NCBI RefSeq assembly: GCF_000196355.1
Contig: NC_007614.1
Coordinates: 1,740,001 to 1,772,000 of the forward strand
DNA length: 32,000 nucleotides
From: Nitrosospira multiformis ATCC 25196
GTDB lineage: Bacteria > Pseudomonadota > Gammaproteobacteria > Burkholderiales > Nitrosomonadaceae
Reading direction: 5' to 3'
The notes beneath the pieces are model-generated. The model did no database searches. It worked only from the letters and a program-made list of their open reading frames with translations, and was not told where the DNA came from. This document shows, piece by piece, positions 6,817 through 14,836 of the stretch (its first letter is position 1; every line of letters begins with the position of its first letter). The position numbers were made by a program, and so were the translations under genes.

Positions 6817-9714
6817 TTGCATACATCCGAACAAAATAAAAAAGACTCATATCAGCAATCCATTCAAGAACTGGTCTCCGCCTACGAAGCGGATACCCGG
6901 CTGGGCTTGAGCGAGACGGAAGCCTTGGCACGACTGGAGAGATACGGCAGAAATGAGCTGCCAGCCGGAAAAGTTATTCCCCGCTGGCAAAAATTTCTCG
7001 CTCAGTTCCAGAATGTACTGGTTATCCTTCTGCTGATTGCAACGGCAATTTCGGCAGGTCTGTGGCTTTATGAACGTGAATCCGCTTTACCTTACGAGGC
7101 AATCGCTATCTTTGCGGTGGTGCTGCTCAATGCGCTCATGGGTTACATTCAGGAATCCAGAGCGGAAGAAGCAGTCGCTGCCTTACGTCGGATGTCGGCA
7201 GCGCGTGCCAAGGTCGTCCGCGACGGTGTACAGCGTTCGGTTATTGCGGCAGAACTGGTGCCCGGCGATATCATTCTCGTTGAAGAAGGCGATACCATCC
7301 CTGCGGACGCACGGCTCATTCAAACCACCGCACTACAAACGTCTGAAGCGGCACTTACCGGCGAGAGTTTGCCTGTGTCCAAGGATACCGGGCTCATCAC
7401 GGAACCGTCGGAGCTTGGGGACCGCCATAATATGATCTTTAGTGGGACTACCGTTACTTTCGGCCGTGCGTATGCGCTGGTGGTGGCAATCGGTGCGCAA
7501 ACCCAGATGGGGCGTATCGCAGGAATGTTGGCAATGGTGCCGCCAGAGACAACGTTGTTGCAGAAAGAACTTGCGCATATCGGCAAGCTCCTGGGAATAA
7601 TCGTGATGGCAATCGCCATCATAATGATTACCACGATTATTCTCATAGGGAAGGTAAGCAGTCTGGCTGTACTTATGGATGTCCTCATACTGGGAGTAGC
7701 CCTCGCTGTTGCCGCCATACCCGAAGGCTTGCCTGCCGTGGTAACAGCCGTACTTGCCCTGGGCGTCCAACGCATGGCATGCAGAAATGCAATAGTACGT
7801 CATCTCCCTGCAGTCGAAACGCTGGGTTCCGCAACCATTATCGCTTCCGACAAAACAGGCACCCTGACAAAAAATGAGATGACAGTGCGGGTAGTCATTA
7901 CGGCAAGTGGACGCATCGAAATGACAGGTACCGGCTATTCACCCAAAGGCGAGGTGCGCAGCTGCAGCCCTGGGAATAATGACTATCCGGATAATTTCCC
8001 TCAAGCTGATCCAGGTGTCATGGAAGAAGATAAAGCGAGTGGGAGGATTGAAGGCGCGTTGCGACATGAGCTTGAATGGGCTCTGGCCATTGCCGACAGA
8101 GCCAGTAACGCTGTATTGCAGCATAATGCGGATGGATGGAGGGTAGAGGGTGATCCGACCGAAGGAGCGCTTATCGTCGCGGCGCGCAAGGCAGGACTGG
8201 AGGCTGATGCACTGGATGCACGATTCGAGCGTGTGGGCGAACTTCCCTTCACCTCGGAGCGTAAATTGATGACGACACTACATGCCAATAAAAAAAAACG
8301 CGAATGCCTGCTCGTCTTTACCAAGGGCGCGCCTGATGCATTGCTCACCCGCTGCTCCCTTGAACTGGTAGGGGAAGAAACCAGAGCGCTAACTCCGGAG
8401 CGACGCAGTGAGATCCTGAAGCTGAATGAGGAATTGGCAGCTGAGGCATTACGTTCTCTCGGTGTCGCGTTCCGATCCCTCCCTGCTGATGCGTTCGAAG
8501 CCGATAGAGCGGACGAAAGCATCGAGTACAACCTTGTATTCGTAGGGTTGATCGGCATGCTCGATCCTCCACGCGAGGAAGCCAAAAATGCCGTTAGTCG
8601 GGCAAAGGCCGCCGGTATCAGACCGATAATGATCACGGGCGATCATCCTGTAACTGCAACCGTTATTGCCGCTCAGTTGGGAATAGCTGAAGACAGGCGG
8701 GTTGTTACAGGTGCAAAACTCGAGCAACTCTCGGATGAGGAGCTTGATCGCACTGTAAAGGAAGTTTCCGTGTATGCGCGCGTAAACCCGGAGCATAAGC
8801 TTCGTATTGTCAAAGCGCTCCAGAGAGGGGGTGAAGTCACTGCAATGACGGGGGACGGCGTAAACGATGCGCCTGCCCTGAAAACTTCGGATATTGGAGT
8901 GGCCATGGGAATCACAGGGACGGATGTCTCCAGGGAAGCGGCTGACATGGTTCTCACGGACGACAATTTTGCGTCGATCGTGGCGGCGGTGGAAGAAGGC
9001 CGCACCATTTTTTCCAATATTCGAAAATTTTTACGCTATCTGCTCTCGTCCAATATAGGAGAAGTACTGGTGATGTTTTTCGGCGTACTGCTTGCAAATA
9101 TCATCGGATTGCAGACGGAGGATGGGCTTATTGTGCTGCCCCTGCTGGCAACGCAACTTCTGTGGATTAATTTCGTAACCGATGGAGCGCCTGCCCTCGC
9201 GCTGGGCGTCGATCCACCAGGTGCTCATGTGATGCGCAGACCTCCCCGGGCAAAGGGAGAACGTGTAATAACACCTGAAATGTGGTTCGGCATCGCCTTT
9301 GTAGGTGTAATCACGGCAATAGGAACGCTGCTGGTGATCGATGCCTGCCTTCCGCAAGGCCTTATAGAAGGCGCGGGCAGCATACCCTATGCGCAGACAA
9401 TGGCTTTCAATACCCTGGTATTGTTTTCCCTCTTTAATGTCCTGAATGCGCGTTCTGATAAACAGAGTGCATTCGTCGGTTTATTCTCCAATAAATGGCT
9501 ATGGAGCGCGATCCCGCTTTCGCTTCTGCTGCAGGTCGCTGTAATTTACGTGCCATTTCTACAGCACGCATTCTCTACCGTCAGCCTGAGTCTGCGCGAC
9601 TGGCTGCTTTGCGCAGGGGTAGCAAGTTCCGTGCTGTGGTTGCGTGAATTGAGCAAATTGATATACCGTGCAGCGAGCCAAGCCTCTCGTTCCCCAGTAG
9701 CTCAGCAGCCCTAG
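6817..9714 (+). CDS. P-type cation-transporting ATPase (P2/Ca2+-ATPase-like)
   Basis: The TGES, PEGLP, DKTGTLT and TGDGVNDAPAL motifs are all present, and the N-terminus reads LSETEALARLERYGRNELP. A TTG start at 6817 is preceded by AGGAAG; there is no in-frame ATG nearby. Confidence 0.9.
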   Translation: MHTSEQNKKDSYQQSIQELVSAYEADTRLGLSETEALARLERYGRNELPAGKVIPRWQKFLAQFQNVLVILLLIATAISAGLWLYERESALPYEAIAIFAVVLLNALMGYIQESRAEEAVAALRRMSAARAKVVRDGVQRSVIAAELVPGDIILVEEGDTIPADARLIQTTALQTSEAALTGESLPVSKDTGLITEPSELGDRHNMIFSGTTVTFGRAYALVVAIGAQTQMGRIAGMLAMVPPETTLLQKELAHIGKLLGIIVMAIAIIMITTIILIGKVSSLAVLMDVLILGVALAVAAIPEGLPAVVTAVLALGVQRMACRNAIVRHLPAVETLGSATIIASDKTGTLTKNEMTVRVVITASGRIEMTGTGYSPKGEVRSCSPGNNDYPDNFPQADPGVMEEDKASGRIEGALRHELEWALAIADRASNAVLQHNADGWRVEGDPTEGALIVAARKAGLEADALDARFERVGELPFTSERKLMTTLHANKKKRECLLVFTKGAPDALLTRCSLELVGEETRALTPERRSEILKLNEELAAEALRSLGVAFRSLPADAFEADRADESIEYNLVFVGLIGMLDPPREEAKNAVSRAKAAGIRPIMITGDHPVTATVIAAQLGIAEDRRVVTGAKLEQLSDEELDRTVKEVSVYARVNPEHKLRIVKALQRGGEVTAMTGDGVNDAPALKTSDIGVAMGITGTDVSREAADMVLTDDNFASIVAAVEEGRTIFSNIRKFLRYLLSSNIGEVLVMFFGVLLANIIGLQTEDGLIVLPLLATQLLWINFVTDGAPALALGVDPPGAHVMRRPPRAKGERVITPEMWFGIAFVGVITAIGTLLVIDACLPQGLIEGAGSIPYAQTMAFNTLVLFSLFNVLNARSDKQSAFVGLFSNKWLWSAIPLSLLLQVAVIYVPFLQHAFSTVSLSLRDWLLCAGVASSVLWLRELSKLIYRAASQASRSPVAQQP

Positions 9715-9792
9715 AGTACAGCGGCCGCACCAACTGCGGTTACTTCATGTTTTATTTTACGTCGCGGAAAGACAGCATTCTGCTGTTCGTTC

Positions 9793-10077
9793 TTAATTTC
9801 TGATAGATGGCTCGGTCCGCACACCTTCATCTGGCGTAGCCCACTTAGTCGCTGCTTTAATATTATTTTCAGCACGGCTCGCATTGACACAATCGGGCGT
9901 CGCATCCAGCATGCGCGGACTCGTCATGCAATCTTTTAGCTTTGCAGCTCGTTCCGTTGCATGCGATTCATACCAATCAACGGATCTGACGTCTTCCTGC
10001 TCGGGGCGGATATCGCATCCGGCAAGTATTGCTATCACGCATCCGCTCATTCCTACTGAAATAATAGTCTTTCTCAT
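9793..10077 (-). CDS. Small lipoprotein resembling TrbK/EexN-type entry-exclusion lipoproteins
   Basis: 94 aa with the lipobox ILAGC. The mature part, SVDWYESHATERAAKLKDCMTSPRMLDATPDCVNASRAE, matches my recollection of the conserved W-x-ER-x-L-x-C...TP-x-C-x-NA pattern of conjugative-element exclusion lipoproteins. Confidence 0.5.
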   Translation of the reverse strand: MRKTIISVGMSGCVIAILAGCDIRPEQEDVRSVDWYESHATERAAKLKDCMTSPRMLDATPDCVNASRAENNIKAATKWATPDEGVRTEPSIRN

Positions 10078-10412
10078 ATTTAAATTCTTCGGAGTAGATT
10101 ATCCGTGATACACCAGAGCGATAATCACGGTTATGTCCGTGTTCATACCGCTTGAGAATTGCATAAATCGGCGGGCTAATTCTGTGCGGTGGCGTACCAA
10201 GCCGAAGGAAGGCAGAATCGTTACAAAACTTCGTTCCGACGGTTCGAATCTTCCACAATACGCACTGTTGATGTGGCATAAGTGGAGGTTTAACCGGGAT
10301 AGGGTGGATTTTCACGATTCATGGGGTAGTGGGGCATGTCTTGAAGGAAGATTGCCCATGGAGCGAGCGAGTGCATAGGAAAGTTTTTAAAAGAAGTAAT
10401 CAACGCCACCGG

Positions 10413-10470
10413 CGAAAGCGAAAACCAGGATCGAGCCGGGGCAAGATGTCTACCGCACACCAGCTCGATC
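10413..10470 (-). terminator. Possible intrinsic terminator after the 174-aa regulator-like gene
   Basis: On the minus strand, GATCGAGC (25-nt loop) GCTCGATC is followed by CTGGTTTTCGCTTTCG. The large loop makes it only moderately convincing. Confidence 0.35.
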
Positions 10471-10489
10471 TTCTTCTGGTCTGGTCCAA

Positions 10490-11014
10490 TTAAGCCATTT
10501 CACTGGCCGCCGGGCTCCGCAGTAGGCCGCGGCTTTCCATCTCCCTCTGCAACATATCCATCGCCTGATCATGAATCAGATCGAGCGCGTCATAACCGCG
10601 ATTACGCAATGAGGCCGCCTTGAGCATTCCACAGGCCATCGTTTTCCTGATTTCACGCAATCCAATCTTTTGGCCACAGTAGGCGCGAATTATCTGCTCG
10701 ATACCCCTGCGATGATGAATTCCTGTCCCAAAATTTGCAGCAAGGTGCCGACTGAGCAGATCGAAGCCACTCGCTTCCCGGCCGAACTGAACATTTATGT
10801 AAGCCATATGCAGTTCAGATAATATGCGATTACATAAGCTTAGAATCAGCGCCGCTTGTGCGTGAAGATCGTGCGCAGTCAATTCACCATGTGCGCCACT
10901 CTCCCCTGCCCTGTCAGGGCCGCGCATCGCGTTAACCGATGAGATTCTCACGATTGGACGACTGGTGGTTTCATACGCCCAGCTCAATGCATGCTGCGGA
11001 TCATTAAATTTCAT
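10490..11014 (-). CDS. Hypothetical regulator-like protein (174 aa); faint resemblance to phage Q-type antiterminators or sigma region 4
   Basis: ATG start with a weak AAGGGA RBS. It has a helical composition and a C-terminal HTH-like stretch (IGLREIRKTMACGMLKAASLRNRGYDAL). The family assignment is a guess. Confidence 0.55.
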   Translation of the reverse strand: MKFNDPQHALSWAYETTSRPIVRISSVNAMRGPDRAGESGAHGELTAHDLHAQAALILSLCNRILSELHMAYINVQFGREASGFDLLSRHLAANFGTGIHHRRGIEQIIRAYCGQKIGLREIRKTMACGMLKAASLRNRGYDALDLIHDQAMDMLQREMESRGLLRSPAASEMA

Positions 11015-11450
11015 TTGTCATATTCCCTTTTTGAAAAAATGTACAACGAACGCCGTGTTTTTGCCCTTTTTCACAGAACTCCAGGTTATTCCACCCCATT
11101 CGGATTCGATTCATGCCGGCAGCCGTGGCATGATCGGGTTTGCCTGCGCTCTGCAACCGCTTCCGGATCTCCATACTCCCAATGCTCAAGAGGCAAGCGC
11201 ATATCGTTCTTCTTGGTGTCTGGTCTTCTGATACCTGTTCTCATTCGTTACGCTCCGGTTCCTTAAAATTTGCACTATGGTGTGGTTGTCCTTGTATGAA
11301 TGCCTGTGCCACAGGTGGGTGTTAATAGTTACCCGATACGTCTATAGTCATTCAGAGTGCAAAGCCATTTGCTTGACGGTAAATGGCTCTGCTTCATGAT
11401 TCCTTGGTGAAAGTGAACCTTTCTTGCTTGAAGATTTCCAATGAAGGATA

Positions 11451-11479
11451 TTATTACAAGTTTTACTTGTATATGTCAA
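11451..11479 (-). promoter_or_regulatory. Leftward sigma70-type promoter (P-left): TTGACA-N17-TAATAA
   Basis: The minus strand reads cacTTGACAtaTACAAGTaaaACTTGTAATAAt. The -35 is at 11474-11479 and the -10 at 11451-11456. Operator O1 fills the spacer. Confidence 0.6.
11455..11471. promoter_or_regulatory. Operator O1: 17-bp palindrome TACAAGT-ttt-ACTTGTA
   Basis: Perfect 7+7 inverted repeat, centred at 11463. Confidence 0.65.
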
Positions 11480-11491
11480 GTGAAACTTGTA
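11475..11491. promoter_or_regulatory. Operator O2: gtCAAGT-gaa-ACTTGTA
   Basis: The right half is 7/7 and the left half 5/7 against the consensus. Its centre at 11483 is 20 bp from O1. It overlaps the -35 of P-left. Confidence 0.55.
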
Positions 11492-11498
11492 AGCGGGA

Positions 11499-11515
11499 TG
11501 CAAGAATTGCTTGTA
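11499..11515. promoter_or_regulatory. Operator O3 (degenerate): TgCAAGa-att-gCTTGTA
   Basis: 5/7 plus 6/7 match to the consensus. Its centre at 11507 is 24 bp from O2. It overlaps the -10 of the rightward promoter. Confidence 0.45.
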
Positions 11516-11519
11516 TTAT
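11514..11519 (+). promoter_or_regulatory. -10 element TATTAT of the rightward promoter for the XRE gene; no recognisable -35
   Basis: The 12-mer CTTGTATTATG is shared with promoter P-B at 13049-13060. The ATG of the XRE gene starts 7 nt after the -10. Confidence 0.5.
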
Positions 11520-11525
11520 GATGGC

Positions 11526-12080
11526 ATGGACATAGCGCGGATAATTCGCGAGGGACGCGAAAAGCTTAAATTGAACCAGTCGGAGCTGGCCGAGCTTGTG
11601 GGCGTGTCTCCACAGGCGGTTCAGCAGTGGGAATCTGGCGCTACACAACCGCGCGGGAAAAGACTGAACAAGATCGCAGAAGTGCTCAAGCTGCCCCCGG
11701 CGATGATGCATTTCGGAATGTCACTGGAAGTTCCGGCTGCGCCTGATGCTGCAGTATCGCGTCAACCGGAGAATCCGGGACGTGGAACTCGAGGTACCTC
11801 TCCCCGCGTCACTGAGAAACCGGTTTCGGAGAACGATGCACTTATCAATCAGGTTGTCGAAGCAATGCGGCGCATGTCTAAAGAAGATGCAGCGCGACTG
11901 GTAACAATAAGCAAGGCGCTGGTAGGTGAAACAGTTACCGAAGTGGCTGAGGCGGTTCCTTCGGTAGATCTGAAACCTCTACCGGTACCGGATCTGCCTC
12001 CTCATCCCCCTCCAGCTTTTCCTCCGCGTCGGATGTCCGAGAGTAGAACGAAGGTCAGGGGAAAGACGGCAATCAGATAG
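11526..12080 (+). CDS. XRE-family (CI/Cro-type) HTH transcriptional regulator with a Pro-rich C-terminal tail and no S24 peptidase domain
   Basis: The N-terminus MDIARIIREGREKLKLNQSELAELVGVSPQAVQQWESGATQPRGKRLNKIAEVL is a textbook XRE HTH. The C-terminal 120 aa lack the Ala-Gly/GDSM LexA-type signatures and end with PLPVPDLPPHPPPAFPPRR. Confidence 0.8.
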   Translation: MDIARIIREGREKLKLNQSELAELVGVSPQAVQQWESGATQPRGKRLNKIAEVLKLPPAMMHFGMSLEVPAAPDAAVSRQPENPGRGTRGTSPRVTEKPVSENDALINQVVEAMRRMSKEDAARLVTISKALVGETVTEVAEAVPSVDLKPLPVPDLPPHPPPAFPPRRMSESRTKVRGKTAIR

Positions 12081-12291
12081 GCGGCACCTTTCCAGGCATG
12101 GAACGGATCGCCGCAAAAATGACAGACGCCGAAGCTGACGCTGTTGGAGTAGCATGTTTATAAAAAGAAAAGATACATAAGGAAATACAGAATATATTTG
12201 CGTCACCCACTCTGATTATCATCGGATAATAGAAGAGTTGGCGCCTTATAATAATCTGGACCAGAGATACGCCAGTAACACTCCTGCCCTC

Positions 12292-12513
12292 ATGAGACCA
12301 TTAGCAAATAGACTGCCGTATGACAGTACGGAGATGCTGCTCGCCTTTCATGTATCAGAAAAGGCACGTGCAAAACGTGACAGATACATCATGCAATTCC
12401 CCGAGGAGTCGCGGGAACTGGAAAAAAGGAGGTATACACTTGAGCAGGCAGTAAAGGAAGTGCTGGGTGAAGTAGCGGAAGTCGCATTGCTTATCCGGGA
12501 ACTGGAGAGCTGA
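12292..12513 (+). CDS. Hypothetical small protein (73 aa from ATG; 91 aa if the TTG at 12238 is used)
   Basis: The C-terminal half looks helical/coiled-coil (EESRELEKRRYTLEQAVKEVLGEVAEVALLIRELES). There is no clear RBS and the start is uncertain. Confidence 0.4.
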   Translation: MRPLANRLPYDSTEMLLAFHVSEKARAKRDRYIMQFPEESRELEKRRYTLEQAVKEVLGEVAEVALLIRELES

Positions 12514-12599
12514 TTCGAAGGCCGAAGTTCTGTACAAATAACCTATTGATTGGATTATATCTTTTTCCCTTTTCGCCTTTTTATCGATCAGGAATTCAT

Positions 12600-12926
12600 A
12601 TGAAATATCTTATGGTTGTCTTGCTCAGCATGTGGGTGCTCTCTTCGTGTGTTATCACGGGAAAAATGTCAGGTATCCGGGAAGGCATGACAAAAGAGCA
12701 AGTGATAAGCATCGCGGGTAATCCGGATGGCTATCAGCGCAGTGGCGATTATGAGGCGTTGCTTTATATCGATCGTCGGCACTCCTGGTCCTTGTTCGGT
12801 GGACCCTATCGGGATGCTGTTGATTATTCGGTCATCCTTCGTGATGATCAGGTGATGGAGTTCGGCCCAGGCAGAACGCATGAGCGCCAGGCTGAAGTTC
12901 CTTTCGTCAGGGTTCCGGGCCGTTAA
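12600..12926 (+). CDS. Lipoprotein with a BamE/SmpA-OmlA-like motif
   Basis: AGGA lies 7 nt upstream of the ATG. The signal peptide MKYLMVVLLSMWVLSSC carries the lipobox LSSC. GMTKEQVISIAGNPDG is the hallmark start of the SmpA_OmlA fold. Confidence 0.7.
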   Translation: MKYLMVVLLSMWVLSSCVITGKMSGIREGMTKEQVISIAGNPDGYQRSGDYEALLYIDRRHSWSLFGGPYRDAVDYSVILRDDQVMEFGPGRTHERQAEVPFVRVPGR

Positions 12927-13018
12927 CCTGCATTTATCCGTATTTCCCACGACTTCCAGCGATTGCCCGACCCCGATCCTTTCAAAACCCAGCCCCTTCC
13001 TTCCCTCCAATACTTGTT

Positions 13019-13035
13019 TACAAGTTTATCTTGAC
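13019..13035. promoter_or_regulatory. Operator OB1: TACAAGT-tta-tCTTGac, overlapping the -35 of P-B
   Basis: The left half is 7/7 and the right half 4/7, centred at 13027. An extra ACTTGT half-site at 13012-17 makes ACTTGTttACAAGT. Confidence 0.45.
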
Positions 13036-13059
13036 AATTACAAGTAATACTTGTATTAT
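13031..13059 (+). promoter_or_regulatory. Rightward consensus sigma70 promoter (P-B): TTGACA-N17-TATTAT
   Basis: The sequence reads atcTTGACAatTACAAGTaatACTTGTATTATg. It is near-identical in sequence and register to P-left (11451-11479, minus strand). Confidence 0.65.
13039..13055. promoter_or_regulatory. Operator OB2: perfect 17-bp palindrome TACAAGTA-a-TACTTGTA
   Basis: 8+8 perfect inverted repeat, centred at 13047 and 20 bp from OB1. It occupies the -35/-10 spacer of P-B. Confidence 0.65.
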
Positions 13060-13066
13060 GCTTTCC

Positions 13067-13108
13067 ATGTTGCAGCGCCACAGTTGATCGGTCCTGGTGT
13101 TGCAACAT
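13067..13108 (+). other. 14-bp stem-loop at the predicted 5' end of the P-B transcript
   Basis: ATGTTGCAGCGCCA (13067-13080) pairs with TGGTGTTGCAACAT (13095-13108): 12 Watson-Crick and 2 G-U pairs with a 14-nt loop. No U-tract follows, so it is not a terminator. Confidence 0.5.
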
Positions 13109-13286
13109 CCGTGAAACAGACGTGCAGCCTGCCTCAGGCATAGCCTCGATCGAGTAAGGCCCTCAGGGCGTCGAAAGACAAGCGGTCAGGGAAGGGAAAG
13201 GCACAAAGAAATATCCAGGCCGTGCCTGGCGCGGAAATTGAACCCGATCTGAAAGGGTAAACCAGGGTAGAGCAAGGGAGGGCGTG

Positions 13287-13541
13287 ATGGGAAACGGGGT
13301 GGGGCGATGGATGAACTGGATGGCAGCGTGGACCGAACATTGTCCCGCCCCCCTTGATCTCTCGGATAGCGAGATACTCGACTGGTTAAGCGAATACTGC
13401 GACCAGGCCGTCTATAATCATCCGACATCGCAATCCTGCGGCGGCTTCACTCTCTATTGCGATGAAATCAGAAGCAGCGCCTCCACATTGCGGGAAGCAG
13501 TTTGTCTCGCGGCGGCGAAGTGGAGGGAGGCAAATGATTAG
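13287..13541 (+). CDS. Hypothetical small protein (84 aa)
   Basis: GGGAGGG lies 8 nt upstream of the ATG at 13287. The protein is Trp/Cys-containing and non-repetitive; I recognise no family. Confidence 0.5.
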   Translation: MGNGVGRWMNWMAAWTEHCPAPLDLSDSEILDWLSEYCDQAVYNHPTSQSCGGFTLYCDEIRSSASTLREAVCLAAAKWREAND

Positions 13542-13612
13542 ACGTTTTCCGGTACTGCCACTATCTGCTCGCAATATCCAAAAACTTTAATACAGTCTTG
13601 TCAGACGAGCTG

Positions 13613-14836
13613 ATGGAACACGATGGGGAAAGTTCAACCATGGCCAAACCCTCTCCTGCACCTTCCTCAACTCCTCCACCCTATATTACTTCTGTCGATC
13701 TCATGCGTGGGCTGGTCATGGTTCTCATGGCCCTTGACCATGTGCGCGGATTCTTCACCAATGCCGATTTCAGCTCCACTGATCTTGCCCGCACTACTCC
13801 CGGCGTTTTCCTGACACGCTGGATCACTCACCTGTGCGCCCCCACCTTTGTGTTTCTGGCAGGCACCAGTGCTTATCTGTCTGCATCGCGGGGGATGGCC
13901 CACTCCCAGTTGGCGAAACGATTATTCCTGCGGGGGTTGTGGCTGGTATTTCTTGAACTGACGGTGGTGCGTTTTGCCTGGTTCTTCAATCTGGATTACA
14001 ACTTGATGGACCTGCAGGTGATCTGGGCGCTGGGGTGGTCCATGATTGTTCTCGCGGCGCTCGTCTATCTGCCGCTATGGGCGGTCGCCGGCGTTGGCAT
14101 CGGCATGATCCTGACTCACAATCTGCTCGACAGCATACGGCTTGAGGATTTTCAGGCAGCGGGCGGCTCGCTCACCTGGAAAGGGTGGCTGGTGAGCGTG
14201 CTCCACATCCCCCACTTTCCGGTGGTGTACCCTCTCATCCCCTGGATCGGAGTAATGGCCTCGGGTTATGCATTTGGTCCTCTCATGCTGCTGCCATCGA
14301 GGACAAGAATAAAGGTAGTATTTAAATGCGGCACGATTCTTGTCGCAGGCTTCCTCATTCTCCGCGGCCTGAATATTTATGGCGATCCGGATCCATGGGT
14401 TTTGCAGGAAACCCCCGTGTTCACACTACTTTCCTTCCTGAATACGACGAAATATCCACCGTCACTGCTCTATCTGCTGATGACACTCGGACTCATGTTC
14501 CTGCTGATATCTGCATTTGAATGGTGGCATGAGGCGCACGGGCCGCACGGTGTCGCAGGACGTTTTCTGATTACCTTTGGCCGCGTGCCCCTGTTTTTCT
14601 ATCTCATTCATCTGTATTTTATTCATGGCTTCACCCTGCTCATTGCGTTTGCAATGGGAGCGAATATTCGCTCCTTCCTGACCTCTTCCTGGGAATTCCC
14701 ATCCTGGTGGGGATTCAGCCTTCCAGTTGTTTACCTGGTATGGGTGGGAGTCACTACCACACTCTATCCCATCTGCCGCCGGTTCGCGGCATTAAAATCT
14801 CGCCACCGGGGCAGTTGGTGGACGCCCTATATCTAA
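13613..14836 (+). CDS. DUF1624 / heparan-alpha-glucosaminide N-acetyltransferase-like polytopic membrane protein
   Basis: It has the signature DLMRGLVMVLMALDHVRGFF and about 10 hydrophobic helices. The start is ambiguous: TTG 13598, ATG 13613, or ATG 13640, the last having the best RBS. Confidence 0.8.
   Translation: MEHDGESSTMAKPSPAPSSTPPPYITSVDLMRGLVMVLMALDHVRGFFTNADFSSTDLARTTPGVFLTRWITHLCAPTFVFLAGTSAYLSASRGMAHSQLAKRLFLRGLWLVFLELTVVRFAWFFNLDYNLMDLQVIWALGWSMIVLAALVYLPLWAVAGVGIGMILTHNLLDSIRLEDFQAAGGSLTWKGWLVSVLHIPHFPVVYPLIPWIGVMASGYAFGPLMLLPSRTRIKVVFKCGTILVAGFLILRGLNIYGDPDPWVLQETPVFTLLSFLNTTKYPPSLLYLLMTLGLMFLLISAFEWWHEAHGPHGVAGRFLITFGRVPLFFYLIHLYFIHGFTLLIAFAMGANIRSFLTSSWEFPSWWGFSLPVVYLVWVGVTTTLYPICRRFAALKSRHRGSWWTPYI

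What the first reader, a model, noticed from the sequence alone, without database searches (positions are those of the whole stretch)
13012..13062. Second copy of the promoter-operator module 1.58 kb away in inverted orientation (an OL-like partner)
P-B (atcTTGACAatTACAAGTaatACTTGTATTATg) matches the minus-strand P-left (cacTTGACAtaTACAAGTaaaACTTGTAATAAt) almost base for base. The upstream second site also matches (ttTACAAGTttaTCTTGACA versus cttACAAGTttcACTTGACA). Two homologous repressible promoters therefore point outward from a 1.5-kb segment holding the repressor gene, a small ORF and a lipoprotein gene. In lambda, OL and OR flank cI-rexAB, and CI bound at both clusters loops the DNA. Two clusters of the same operator at kb distance make cooperative looping a testable possibility here. 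The XRE promoter core (GCTTGTATTATG) looks like a third, -35-less derivative of the same module.
Basis: partly seen in the sequence, partly recalled or inferred. Interest (0 to 1): 0.62.

Follow-up and report, generated by a model that had tools for sequence, protein, structure and literature searches.

The report
Second repressor-controlled promoter beside a phage-type switch
A strong promoter with the same built-in repressor-binding palindrome as the one beside the repressor gene lies 1.6 kb away and faces outward; this is the familiar "left operator/promoter" layout of lambda-like phages, kept here in every Nitrosospira species examined as a stripped-down remnant that drives a conserved structured RNA and a small protein.

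Summary
P-B (-35 13031-36, -10 13054-59) and the minus-strand P-left (11479-11451) share 37 of 49 bases. Of the 32 core positions outside the two hexamers, 25 are identical. Each promoter has a perfect 15-bp palindrome ACAAGT-N3-ACTTGT in a 17-bp spacer and a weaker copy 20 bp upstream. In the 3.23-Mb genome, palindromes with at most 1 mismatch occur only here.

The module is a conserved island in otherwise unconserved intergenic DNA. It is present in all 30 distinct Nitrosospira/Nitrosovibrio P-B regions recovered, always in the order XRE, small ORF, lipoprotein, P-B, p85.

The repressor's HTH is closest to the phage P22 C2 repressor, and its recognition helix is essentially invariant. In more distant species P-left drives phage replication-type genes. 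P-B is therefore best read as a PL/OL analogue in a domesticated prophage immunity remnant, repressed by promoter occlusion.

Looping remains untested. The repressor lacks the CI-type C-terminal domain. The second P-B site is degenerate or missing in several species. The distance between the clusters is not conserved.

The scan has met OL/OR layouts before on other DNA, and the OR side of this locus was already followed up. The new point is P-B's cargo: a roughly 150-nt covarying RNA with no Rfam family, followed by an 84-aa protein.

The parts
13031..13059 (+). Promoter P-B: -35 TTGACA (13031-13036), 17-bp spacer, -10 TATTAT (13054-13059). Predicted start is near 13066.
   Evidence: Sequence. 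Promoter scan gives 11/12 to consensus. TTGACAATTACAAG-N5-CTTGTA is invariant and the -10 keeps TAnnnT in 30 distinct genus regions.
13039..13055 (.). Operator OB1: perfect 17-bp dyad TACAAGT-AAT-ACTTGTA. It fills the promoter spacer and touches the -10.
   Evidence: 0 mismatches. Present with <=2 mismatches in 30/30 regions.
13020..13034 (.). Operator OB2: weaker dyad ACAAGT-TTA-TCTTGA overlapping the -35. Its centre is 20 bp from OB1.
   Evidence: 2 mismatches. A full site at this position is found in roughly half of the 30 regions. The left half TACAAGT is present in about 24/30, with spacing to the -35 varying by 1-3 bp.
13012..13017 (.). Isolated half-site ACTTGT, probably the remnant of a third operator (OB3).
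   Evidence: A close relative (L021) has a full 1-mismatch site at the equivalent position, 17 bp upstream of OB2.
11451..11479 (-). Promoter P-left: -35 TTGACA (11479-11474), 17-bp spacer, -10 TAATAA (11456-11451). It is the partner module.
   Evidence: Conserved in all species examined.
11456..11514 (.). OR-like cluster: O1 11456-11470 (0 mismatches), O2 11476-11490 (1 mismatch), O3 11500-11514 (3 mismatches). Centre spacings are 20 and 24 bp.
11514..11519 (+). -10 TATTAT of the XRE gene's own promoter. It has no -35, and the ATG lies 7 nt downstream.
   Evidence: O3 plus this -10 matches OB1 plus its -10 at 17/20 (D5).
11526..12080 (+). XRE-family repressor, 184 aa: HTH 1-60, disordered linker, two-helix hairpin 102-133, conserved Pro-rich basic tail.
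   Evidence: Pfam HTH_3, E 1.5e-16. P22 C2 N-terminal domain is the best PDB match by sequence and by fold, TM 0.82-0.85. AF2 model. Recognition helix (S/T)PQAVQQWE is unchanged in 25 orthologues apart from Ser/Thr at its first position.
12238..12513 (+). Small conserved ORF (p91). Only 12326-12505 is conserved, so the true start is probably later than 12238.
   Evidence: tblastn synteny. Conservation profile. No family hit.
12600..12926 (+). Lipoprotein gene with an LSSC lipobox and a weak BamE-like match.
   Evidence: BamE E 0.0019, below cut-off. Syntenic in all loci.
13067..13108 (+). 5'-terminal hairpin of the P-B transcript. The sequence varies between species.
   Evidence: Sequence. Alignment: the sequence differs between species; whether pairing is kept was judged by eye only, since RNAalifold placed no pairs here.
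13105..13258 (+). Conserved structured RNA domain in the P-B leader. Closing stem 13109-13113 with 13230-13234, an invariant hairpin 13215-13229, and a small 3' hairpin 13243-13257.
   Evidence: Conservation 0.77-0.91 in bins from 13106 to 13255 against 0.18-0.20 in neighbouring intergenic DNA. Of 35 pairs, 97.9% of cells are paired, 7 pairs show compensatory changes, and 0/500 shuffles reach this. Many G-U pairs fit only the + strand. No Rfam family. Single copy in the genome.
13287..13541 (+). p85 (84 aa from ATG 13287), the only protein gene always found behind P-B.
   Evidence: Syntenic in all loci that reach that far. Start supported by orthologues. Conservation stops right after its stop codon. 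AF2 pLDDT 71.5, alpha-alpha-beta3-alpha. No significant PDB fold match.

Best explanation
P-B is the second repressor-controlled early promoter (the PL/OL analogue) of a domesticated phage-type immunity region kept in every Nitrosospira/Nitrosovibrio species examined.

A dimer of the XRE-family repressor (11526-12080) binds the 17-bp dyad OB1, which fills the spacer between a consensus -35 and the -10. Binding there excludes RNA polymerase. The weaker site OB2, over the -35 and two helical turns upstream, adds affinity in most species.

When the repressor is lost or inactivated, P-B fires rightward. It makes a transcript that begins with a hairpin, continues through a conserved structured RNA of about 150 nt, and encodes the 84-aa protein p85. 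At the same time P-left fires leftward. In this genome P-left reaches only the small p52 ORF and the 174-aa protein. In more distant species it also drives phage replication-type genes.

What is shown:
- the sequence architecture
- its uniqueness in the genome
- its conservation as a footprint
- the synteny
- the P22-C2-like HTH
- the RNA covariation

What is inferred:
- that the XRE protein is the binder
- that binding represses
- the transcription start
- the phage ancestry

The two clusters may act independently. Long-range looping is possible but is not needed to explain the data.
For: - Module similarity is 37/49 overall and 25/32 outside the hexamers, with a 41-nt inverted repeat.
- The two sites are the top promoter matches in the region.
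- The operator is unique to this locus in 3.23 Mb.
- Pattern scan of 185,579 species genomes gave 46 loci. 38 are Nitrosospira, Nitrosovibrio or MAGs labelled only beta-proteobacterium/Pseudomonadota, and all 38 carry genes of this block in the same order. The 8 other bacterial hits and 5 viral hits lack those genes.
- P-B is present in 14/14 extended loci and 30/30 distinct regions.
- Footprint: 0.18-0.20 conservation at 12926-12985 against 0.82 at 13016-13045.
- XRE is found in 23/24 sampled genomes of the genus.
- XRE is the only recognisable DNA-binding protein in the block.
- P22 C2 and 434 are the closest solved relatives.
- The recognition helix is unchanged apart from one Ser/Thr position and the half-sites CAAG/CTTG are invariant.
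- In L022, P-left drives DUF1376 (phage primosomal PHROGs, E 1e-29 to 1e-36) and DUF6475 (phrog_10105, E 2e-68).
- The leader RNA is on the P-B strand and covaries.
Against: - There is no experimental binding, footprint or transcript data.
- The invariant helix and invariant operator give no covariation test of who binds what.
- No Cro-like second repressor, integrase or structural genes are present, so phage ancestry rests on a few gene families and on layout.
- No terminator was found between the lipoprotein gene and P-B. p85 may therefore also be reached by read-through from the repressor operon.
- The P-B -10 varies between species (TATTAT, TAATAT, TAGACT, TAAACT and others), so promoter strength may differ.
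Confidence: 0.72

Rival explanations
1. Repressor bound at the OR-like cluster and at the P-B cluster interacts across about 1.6 kb. The DNA loops and repression becomes cooperative, with an effect on the repressor's own promoter, as lambda CI does between OL and OR.
For: - Each cluster has at least two dyads on the same helical face, 20 bp apart.
- A close relative has three sites at P-B.
- The 1.4-1.9 kb spacing is in the range where CI loops. The wild-type lambda distance is 2317 bp (PMC2685085).
- XRE-type repressors without an S24 domain can loop as tetramers, for example RcoLS20 of pLS20 (PMC4207663).
- The AF2 model has a confident C-terminal two-helix hairpin, and Foldseek aligns the whole protein to SinR (1b0n).
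Against: - There is no CI/LexA-type C-terminal domain.
- The oligomeric state is unknown.
- OB2 is degenerate. Its spacing varies by 1-3 bp and it is unrecognisable in about 6/30 species.
- The distance between clusters is not conserved. It ranges from 1415 to 1932 bp, and is 3083 bp in one species.
- Nothing in the sequence requires looping.
Confidence: 0.2
2. The two modules are terminal inverted repeats of a mobile or invertible DNA segment (a transposon-like element or a recombinase-flipped cassette) rather than operators.
For: Two 41-nt inverted repeats flank a 1.5-kb segment.
Against: - No transposase or invertase gene lies in or beside the segment.
- The segment has the same orientation relative to p174 and p85 in all of roughly 40 loci.
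- The repeats are made of internally dyad-symmetric 15-17-bp sites placed exactly within consensus -35/-10 frames, with a third site at the repressor's own promoter.
- This pattern is typical of HTH operators and not of recombination ends.
Confidence: 0.03
3. The dyads are real operators, but they are bound by another protein of the block (p174, p91 or p85) or by a host factor. The XRE protein would then regulate only its own promoter or nothing here.
For: - There is no direct binding evidence for XRE.
- p174, p91 and p85 have no assigned function.
Against: - XRE is the only protein with a detectable HTH.
- Three dyads sit on its own promoter in the classic autoregulatory layout.
- The dyad geometry (CAAG-N5-CTTG, 15-17 bp) suits a P22 C2/434-type HTH dimer.
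- The operator is unique to this locus, which argues against a global host factor.
Confidence: 0.05

Closest known systems
Phage lambda immunity region (OL/PL, cI-rexAB, PRM/OR/PR) with CI-mediated OL-OR looping (PMC2685085)
   Same: - The repressor gene plus accessory genes is bracketed by two operator clusters.
- Each cluster lies on a strong outward-facing promoter.
- Three sites sit at the repressor-proximal cluster, next to a weak divergent repressor promoter that lacks a -35.
- A leaderless repressor mRNA is predicted in this genome.
- The clusters are separated by kilobases.
   Different: - The repressor has no S24/LexA-type C-terminal domain.
- There is no Cro.
- No N/nut system is recognisable.
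- The P-B cluster has one strong and one weak site.
- The element has no integrase, lysis or structural genes and is fixed across a genus.
- Looping has not been demonstrated.
Phage P22 C2 repressor / immC and phage 434 repressor
   Same: - These are the closest solved relatives of the DNA-binding domain: P22 C2 N-terminal domain E 5e-8, 37% identity, TM 0.82-0.85, and 434 Cro/CI.
- The operators are short dyads with AAG...CTT cores. This comparison is from memory of the 3JXB/2R1J operators.
   Different: - Operator spacing differs: CAAG-N5-CTTG here, against N4 in P22 from memory.
- The C-terminal domain is unrelated.
- The family as a whole is restricted to Nitrosospira in a search of 5.8 billion proteins.
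Rac cryptic prophage RacR-ydaS/T/U region of E. coli K-12 (PMC5700373)
   Same: - It is a defective prophage remnant in which a repressor is retained to silence adjacent early genes.
- The early operon includes a DUF1376 (YdaU-type) replication protein, as in the more distant Nitrosospira loci.
- Earlier notes of this scan describe dual operator clusters around racR.
   Different: - Rac is strain- or species-level and still recognisably a prophage. This block was found in 23 of 24 sampled genomes of a whole genus and is far more reduced.
- The repressor and the operator sequence are different.
- The cargo of the left promoter here is a structured RNA plus a small protein.
RcoLS20 switch of plasmid pLS20 (PMC4207663) and SinR of Bacillus subtilis
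   Same: - Both are XRE-type HTH repressors without a peptidase domain that oligomerise through a small helical C-terminal module.
- In RcoLS20 the repressor loops DNA between two operators while controlling overlapping divergent promoters.
- Foldseek aligns the whole XRE model to SinR 1b0n.
   Different: - In pLS20 the operators are close together rather than 1.6 kb apart. The section heading says the second one lies more than 85 bp downstream of Pc.
- There is no sequence homology in the C-terminal part.
- The oligomeric state here is unknown.

Membership tests
Lambda-type dual operator (OL/OR) immunity region | Repressor gene flanked by two clusters of the same operator | tested here: met
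   O1-O3 at 11456-11514 and OB1-OB2 at 13020-13054. They are unique in the genome.
Lambda-type dual operator (OL/OR) immunity region | Each cluster overlaps an outward-facing early promoter | tested here: met
   Consensus-like promoters, each 11/12, with the operator in the spacer. Conserved in 30/30 regions. Promoter activity itself was not measured.
Lambda-type dual operator (OL/OR) immunity region | Three adjacent operators in each cluster | tested here: inconclusive
   The OR side has three in all species. The P-B side has one strong site, one weak site and a half-site remnant. Three full sites appear in only a few relatives.
Lambda-type dual operator (OL/OR) immunity region | CI/LexA-type repressor with an S24 peptidase C-terminal domain (cooperativity, RecA-stimulated cleavage) | tested here: not met
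   Pfam finds HTH families only. AF2 shows a linker, a two-helix hairpin and a Pro-rich tail. The alignment has no Ala-Gly/Ser-Lys signature.
Lambda-type dual operator (OL/OR) immunity region | Cro-like second repressor as the first gene of the repressor-proximal lytic promoter | tested here: not met
   No HTH ORF follows P-left in the window. In L022 the first gene is DUF1376.
Lambda-type dual operator (OL/OR) immunity region | Long-range OL-OR looping by repressor oligomers | not testable with these tools
   This needs biochemistry or in vivo loop assays.
Lambda-type dual operator (OL/OR) immunity region | Resides in a (pro)phage genome | tested here: inconclusive
   Phage-type replication genes lie behind P-left in more distant species. 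There is no integrase, lysis or structural gene, no match in viral contigs, and the block was found in 23 of 24 sampled genomes of the genus.
Rfam RNA families (for the P-B leader) | Match to a curated covariance model | tested here: not met
   No hit at gathering thresholds in the window. Only chance-level hits at E up to 10.

The most novel reading that the evidence does not exclude
The block is a host-domesticated, phage-derived bistable switch fixed in the genus Nitrosospira. A non-CI-type XRE repressor tetramerises through its helical hairpin and loops the 1.6 kb between the OR-like and P-B clusters. The left arm of the switch has been kept because it controls a previously undescribed structured RNA together with a small, possibly RNA-binding, protein.
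Probability: 0.15. Interest if true: 0.7.

Novelty: new variant of a known kind. Interest (0 to 1): 0.42.

Why it matters
On its own, a second operator-promoter module next to a phage-type repressor gene is textbook, and this scan has met it repeatedly in prophages. Three things make this case worth noting:

- The whole switch, both arms, is conserved in every Nitrosospira/Nitrosovibrio genome examined. These are soil ammonia oxidisers, and the phage body of the element is gone. The regulatory circuit itself has therefore been kept by selection.
- The repressor is not CI-like in its C-terminal half, so induction and any cooperativity must work differently from lambda.
- The conserved product of P-B is a covarying structured RNA of about 150 nt with no Rfam family, plus an 84-aa protein of unknown function.

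If the RNA proves functional, P-B is its promoter and the XRE protein is its regulator. That gives a direct experimental handle.

Tried and rejected
- Rfam at gathering threshold on the window, and at E<=10 on 12950-13350, gave no family for the leader.
- Single-sequence folding of the leader is not better than shuffles, z = -0.04. Only the comparative analysis shows structure.
- Pfam, PHROGs, NCBIfam and PADLOC gave nothing for p85, p91, p174 or p52.
- Foldseek of p85 against the PDB gave no significant match. The best E is 0.13, and the top weak hits are dsRBD domains.
- The viral-contig pattern scan gave 5 hits, none with the locus genes, so they are chance matches.
- The search for XRE homologues outside the genus found named hits only in Nitrosospira and Nitrosovibrio.
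- A covariance model of the leader RNA found no match in 150 other genomes of the order.
- The literature search for Nitrosospira + prophage + repressor found nothing on this locus.
- No plus-strand terminator was found between the lipoprotein gene and P-B, or after p85.
- The transposon/invertible-segment reading was rejected. There is no recombinase and the orientation is constant in about 40 loci.
- A covariation test between recognition helix and operator is impossible, because both are essentially invariant.

Full report

P-B has a consensus -35 (TTGACA, 13031-13036), a 17-bp spacer and the -10 TATTAT (13054-13059). P-left on the minus strand has TTGACA (11479-11474), a 17-bp spacer and TAATAA (11456-11451).

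In register, rc(11447-11495) and 13015-13063 share 37 of 49 bases. The 44-nt core shares 35 of 44. Of the 32 core positions outside the two hexamers, 25 are identical. The refutation criterion "similarity limited to the generic hexamers" is therefore not met.

The repeat finder lists the pair as a 41-nt inverted repeat, 85% complementary. The simple promoter scan ranks these two sites first in 9500-14000, each 11/12 to consensus.

The shared non-hexamer bases are dyad-symmetric sites. ACAAGT-N3-ACTTGT with at most 2 mismatches occurs four times in the window against 0.48 expected, and 0 of 100 shuffles reach four. The four sites are:
- O1, 11456-11470, 0 mismatches
- O2, 11476-11490, 1 mismatch
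- OB2, 13020-13034, 2 mismatches
- OB1, 13040-13054, 0 mismatches

Centre spacing is 20 bp within each cluster. A third, weaker site O3 (GCAAGAattGCTTGT, 11500-14) abuts the -10 TATTAT of the repressor gene. O3 plus that -10 matches OB1 plus its -10 at 17/20 (D5), and there is no -35 at the equivalent place. The "-35-less third derivative" remark is therefore also correct.

In the whole 3.23-Mb genome the composite promoter-operator pattern occurs exactly twice. Dyads with at most 1 mismatch occur three times, all here. The next-best 49-nt match to P-B is 31/49.

**Organism and distribution.** The pattern TTGACA-N2-TACAAG-N5-CTTGTA was scanned across one genome for each of 185,579 species. It hit 46 stretches.
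- 38 stretches are Nitrosospira, Nitrosovibrio or MAGs labelled only beta-proteobacterium/Pseudomonadota. All 38 carry genes of this block in the same order.
- The other 8 bacterial or archaeal hits and all 5 viral-contig hits carry none of these genes, so they are chance matches.

The replicon sizes of the window's genome fit N. multiformis ATCC 25196. That identification is from memory.

The XRE gene is found in 23 of 24 sampled genomes of the genus. The one exception is 65% complete. It is found in none of the sampled other families beyond weak HTH-only matches. A search of 5.8 billion proteins found named homologues only in Nitrosospira and Nitrosovibrio.

**Comparative anatomy.** In 14 extended loci the order is constant: (EexN lipoprotein) - p174 - (p52) - P-left/O1-O3 - XRE - p91 - lipoprotein - P-B - p85. 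All 14 have P-B.

Across 30 distinct P-B regions, TTGACAATTACAAG-N5-CTTGTA is essentially invariant and the -10 keeps TAnnnT.

A conservation profile against 11 distant species shows a clear footprint:

| Window region | Feature | Conservation |
|---|---|---|
| 12926-12985 | intergenic DNA | 0.18-0.20 |
| 13016-13045 | P-B module | 0.82 |
| 13106-13255 | leader RNA | 0.77-0.91 |
| 13286-13525 | p85 | 0.66-0.90 |

Conservation ends just after the p85 stop codon. What follows p85 differs between species (DUF1624, BssS and NhaA here; other genes elsewhere). The selected cargo of P-B is therefore the leader plus p85.

OB2 is less constant. A full N3-spaced site is present in about half of the regions. 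The left half TACAAGT is near the -35 in about 24 of 30, with spacing that varies by 1-3 bp. About 6 regions lack it. The isolated ACTTGT at 13012-17 corresponds to a full third site in a close relative (L021). An ancestral three-site cluster is therefore plausible.

The distance from the XRE ATG to the P-B -35 ranges from 1415 to 1932 bp, and is 3083 bp in one species with an insertion.

**The repressor.** Pfam finds only HTH families (HTH_3, E 1.5e-16). The closest solved structures are the DNA-binding domain of phage P22 C2 repressor (E 5e-8 by sequence; 37% identity and TM 0.82-0.85 by fold), then 434 Cro and repressor.

The recognition helix (S/T)PQAVQQWE is unchanged in 25 orthologues apart from Ser/Thr at its first position, matching the invariant CAAG/CTTG half-sites. 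This is consistent with XRE being the binder. It gives no covariation test.

AF2 (mean pLDDT 71.5) gives a confident HTH (1-60), a disordered linker (65-97), a confident two-helix hairpin (102-133) and a conserved Pro-rich basic tail. There is no S24 peptidase domain. Foldseek also aligns the whole model to SinR (1b0n), an HTH repressor that oligomerises through a helical C-terminal module. This is a lead, not a test.

**Phage ancestry.** In this genome P-left is followed by a 430-nt gap, the small p52 ORF and p174. In more distant species the same promoter drives, in order:
- a DUF1376 protein (phage primosomal PHROGs, E 1e-29 to 1e-36)
- a DUF6475 protein (phrog_10105, E 2e-68)
- a 227-aa ORF
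- p174

This is the content of a lambdoid early-right operon, and DUF1376 is the YdaU family of the Rac prophage. P-left is thus the PR-like arm. P-B lies downstream of the repressor operon and points away from it, so it is topologically the PL-like arm.

No Cro-like gene, integrase, lysis or structural gene is present, and the block was found in 23 of 24 sampled genomes of the genus. It is therefore a domesticated remnant rather than a prophage. Retention of a repressor to silence neighbouring prophage genes has a precedent in RacR (PMC5700373).

**What P-B makes.** The predicted start near 13066 is followed by a hairpin (13067-13108) whose sequence differs between species. By eye the stem looks preserved, but RNAalifold placed no pairs there, so this is not tested.

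Next comes a domain (13105-13258) that is among the most conserved DNA of the locus. On 33 distinct sequences RNAalifold predicts 35 pairs. Counting gives:
- 97.9% of cells paired, against 29-39% when partners are slid
- 7 pairs with compensatory changes, against 2.3 +/- 1.0 in shuffles, with 0 of 500 shuffles reaching 7

The many G-U pairs would be A-C mismatches on the other strand, so the RNA is on the P-B strand. It matches no Rfam 15 family. It is single-copy in this genome. It was not found in 150 other genomes of the order.

p85 (ATG 13287, supported by orthologues) folds as alpha-alpha-beta3-alpha with moderate confidence. It has no significant PDB match. The weak top hits are dsRNA-binding domains, which is only a hint.

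**Mechanism.** The best-supported reading is promoter occlusion. A repressor dimer on OB1 occupies the spacer and the upstream edge of the -10, and OB2 covers the -35. The same protein at O1/O2 shuts P-left.

The layout at the repressor's own promoter parallels lambda PRM. O2 is centred near -43 and O3 near -19 relative to an ATG-proximal start. The lambda geometry used for this comparison is from my own knowledge.

The steps shown are the sequence, uniqueness, conservation, synteny, fold relations and RNA covariation. The steps inferred are binder identity, repression, start sites and ancestry.

**Looping.** Lambda CI loops OL to OR over 2317 bp through octamer and tetramer contacts (PMC2685085). 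An XRE-type repressor without a peptidase domain (RcoLS20) loops as a tetramer (PMC4207663). Looping here is therefore physically plausible.

Nothing in the data requires it, however. The CI-type cooperativity domain is absent, OB2 is weak and variable, and the distance is not conserved. I put it at about 0.2.

**Rivals rejected.**
- A transposon or invertible segment bounded by the inverted repeats. There is no recombinase, the orientation is constant in about 40 loci, and the repeats coincide with promoter frames and internal dyads.
- A different binder. XRE is the only HTH protein, and the sites sit on its own promoter.

**Limits.** No binding or activity data exist, and no paper on this locus was found.

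**Relation to earlier notes of the scan.** The OR side of this locus was already followed up (e1-2607923) and read as a phage-type switch kept in Nitrosospira. My independent checks agree. OL/OR layouts in other genomes were judged ordinary (e1-486012, e1-372986 and the RacR series). That verdict also applies to the core of this finding.

**Verdict.** The OL/PL-like reading is supported by comparative evidence, and looping is untested. The module itself is an ordinary kind of thing in an unusual setting: fixed across the genus, with a non-CI-type repressor and an RNA cargo. Interest 0.42.

Noticed in passing
window 13105-13258 (+): A conserved, covarying structured RNA domain of about 150 nt lies in the P-B leader. 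It has 35 pairs, 7 with compensatory changes, and G-U pairs that fit only the + strand. It has no Rfam 15 family, is single-copy in this genome, and was not found in 150 other genomes of the order. It is among the most conserved DNA of the locus.
   Followed up: partly
window 13287-13541 (+): p85 is an 84-aa protein always found behind P-B and restricted to the genus. AF2 gives alpha-alpha-beta3-alpha (pLDDT 71.5). The only, non-significant, fold neighbours are dsRNA-binding domains. It may act together with the upstream RNA.
   Followed up: partly
window 11015-11444; L022 3145-6258 (-): The 430-nt gene-poor gap behind P-left in this genome corresponds, in more distant Nitrosospira species, to 2-3 kb. 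That stretch holds DUF1376 (YdaU-like, phage primosomal PHROGs), DUF6475 (phrog_10105) and a 227-aa ORF ahead of p174. These genes were lost in the N. multiformis lineage.
   Followed up: yes
L027, L034, L040, L046, L069, L071 (upstream of the XRE ATG): In one clade of species the XRE start codon lies about 55 nt downstream of the conserved O3/-10 instead of 7 nt. The predicted leaderless repressor mRNA is therefore not universal in the genus.
   Followed up: no
window 11970-12080 (XRE residues ~150-184): The repressor ends in a strongly conserved Pro-rich, basic tail (KPLPvPDLaPHPPPAFPPRR...K.RGKTAIR) with moderate AF2 confidence. It has no family match. It may be a partner-binding or degradation motif relevant to induction.
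   Followed up: no
window 9793-10077 (-): An EexN-family entry-exclusion lipoprotein (NCBIfam NF033894, E 1.3e-16) lies at the left edge of the conserved block. It is a plasmid/ICE-type gene next to phage-type regulation. One relative (L032) has two copies.
   Followed up: no
L025 (G008) between p91 and the lipoprotein gene: A roughly 1.4-kb insertion separates p91 from the lipoprotein gene. It stretches the distance between the operator clusters to about 3.1 kb without loss of either module.
   Followed up: no
window 13215-13229 (-): The invariant hairpin CCAGGC-nnn-GCCTGG inside the leader RNA reads as a terminator-like site on the minus strand, with the tail ATATTTCTTT. The G-U pattern favours a plus-strand RNA, but an antisense transcript ending here was not excluded.
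   Followed up: no
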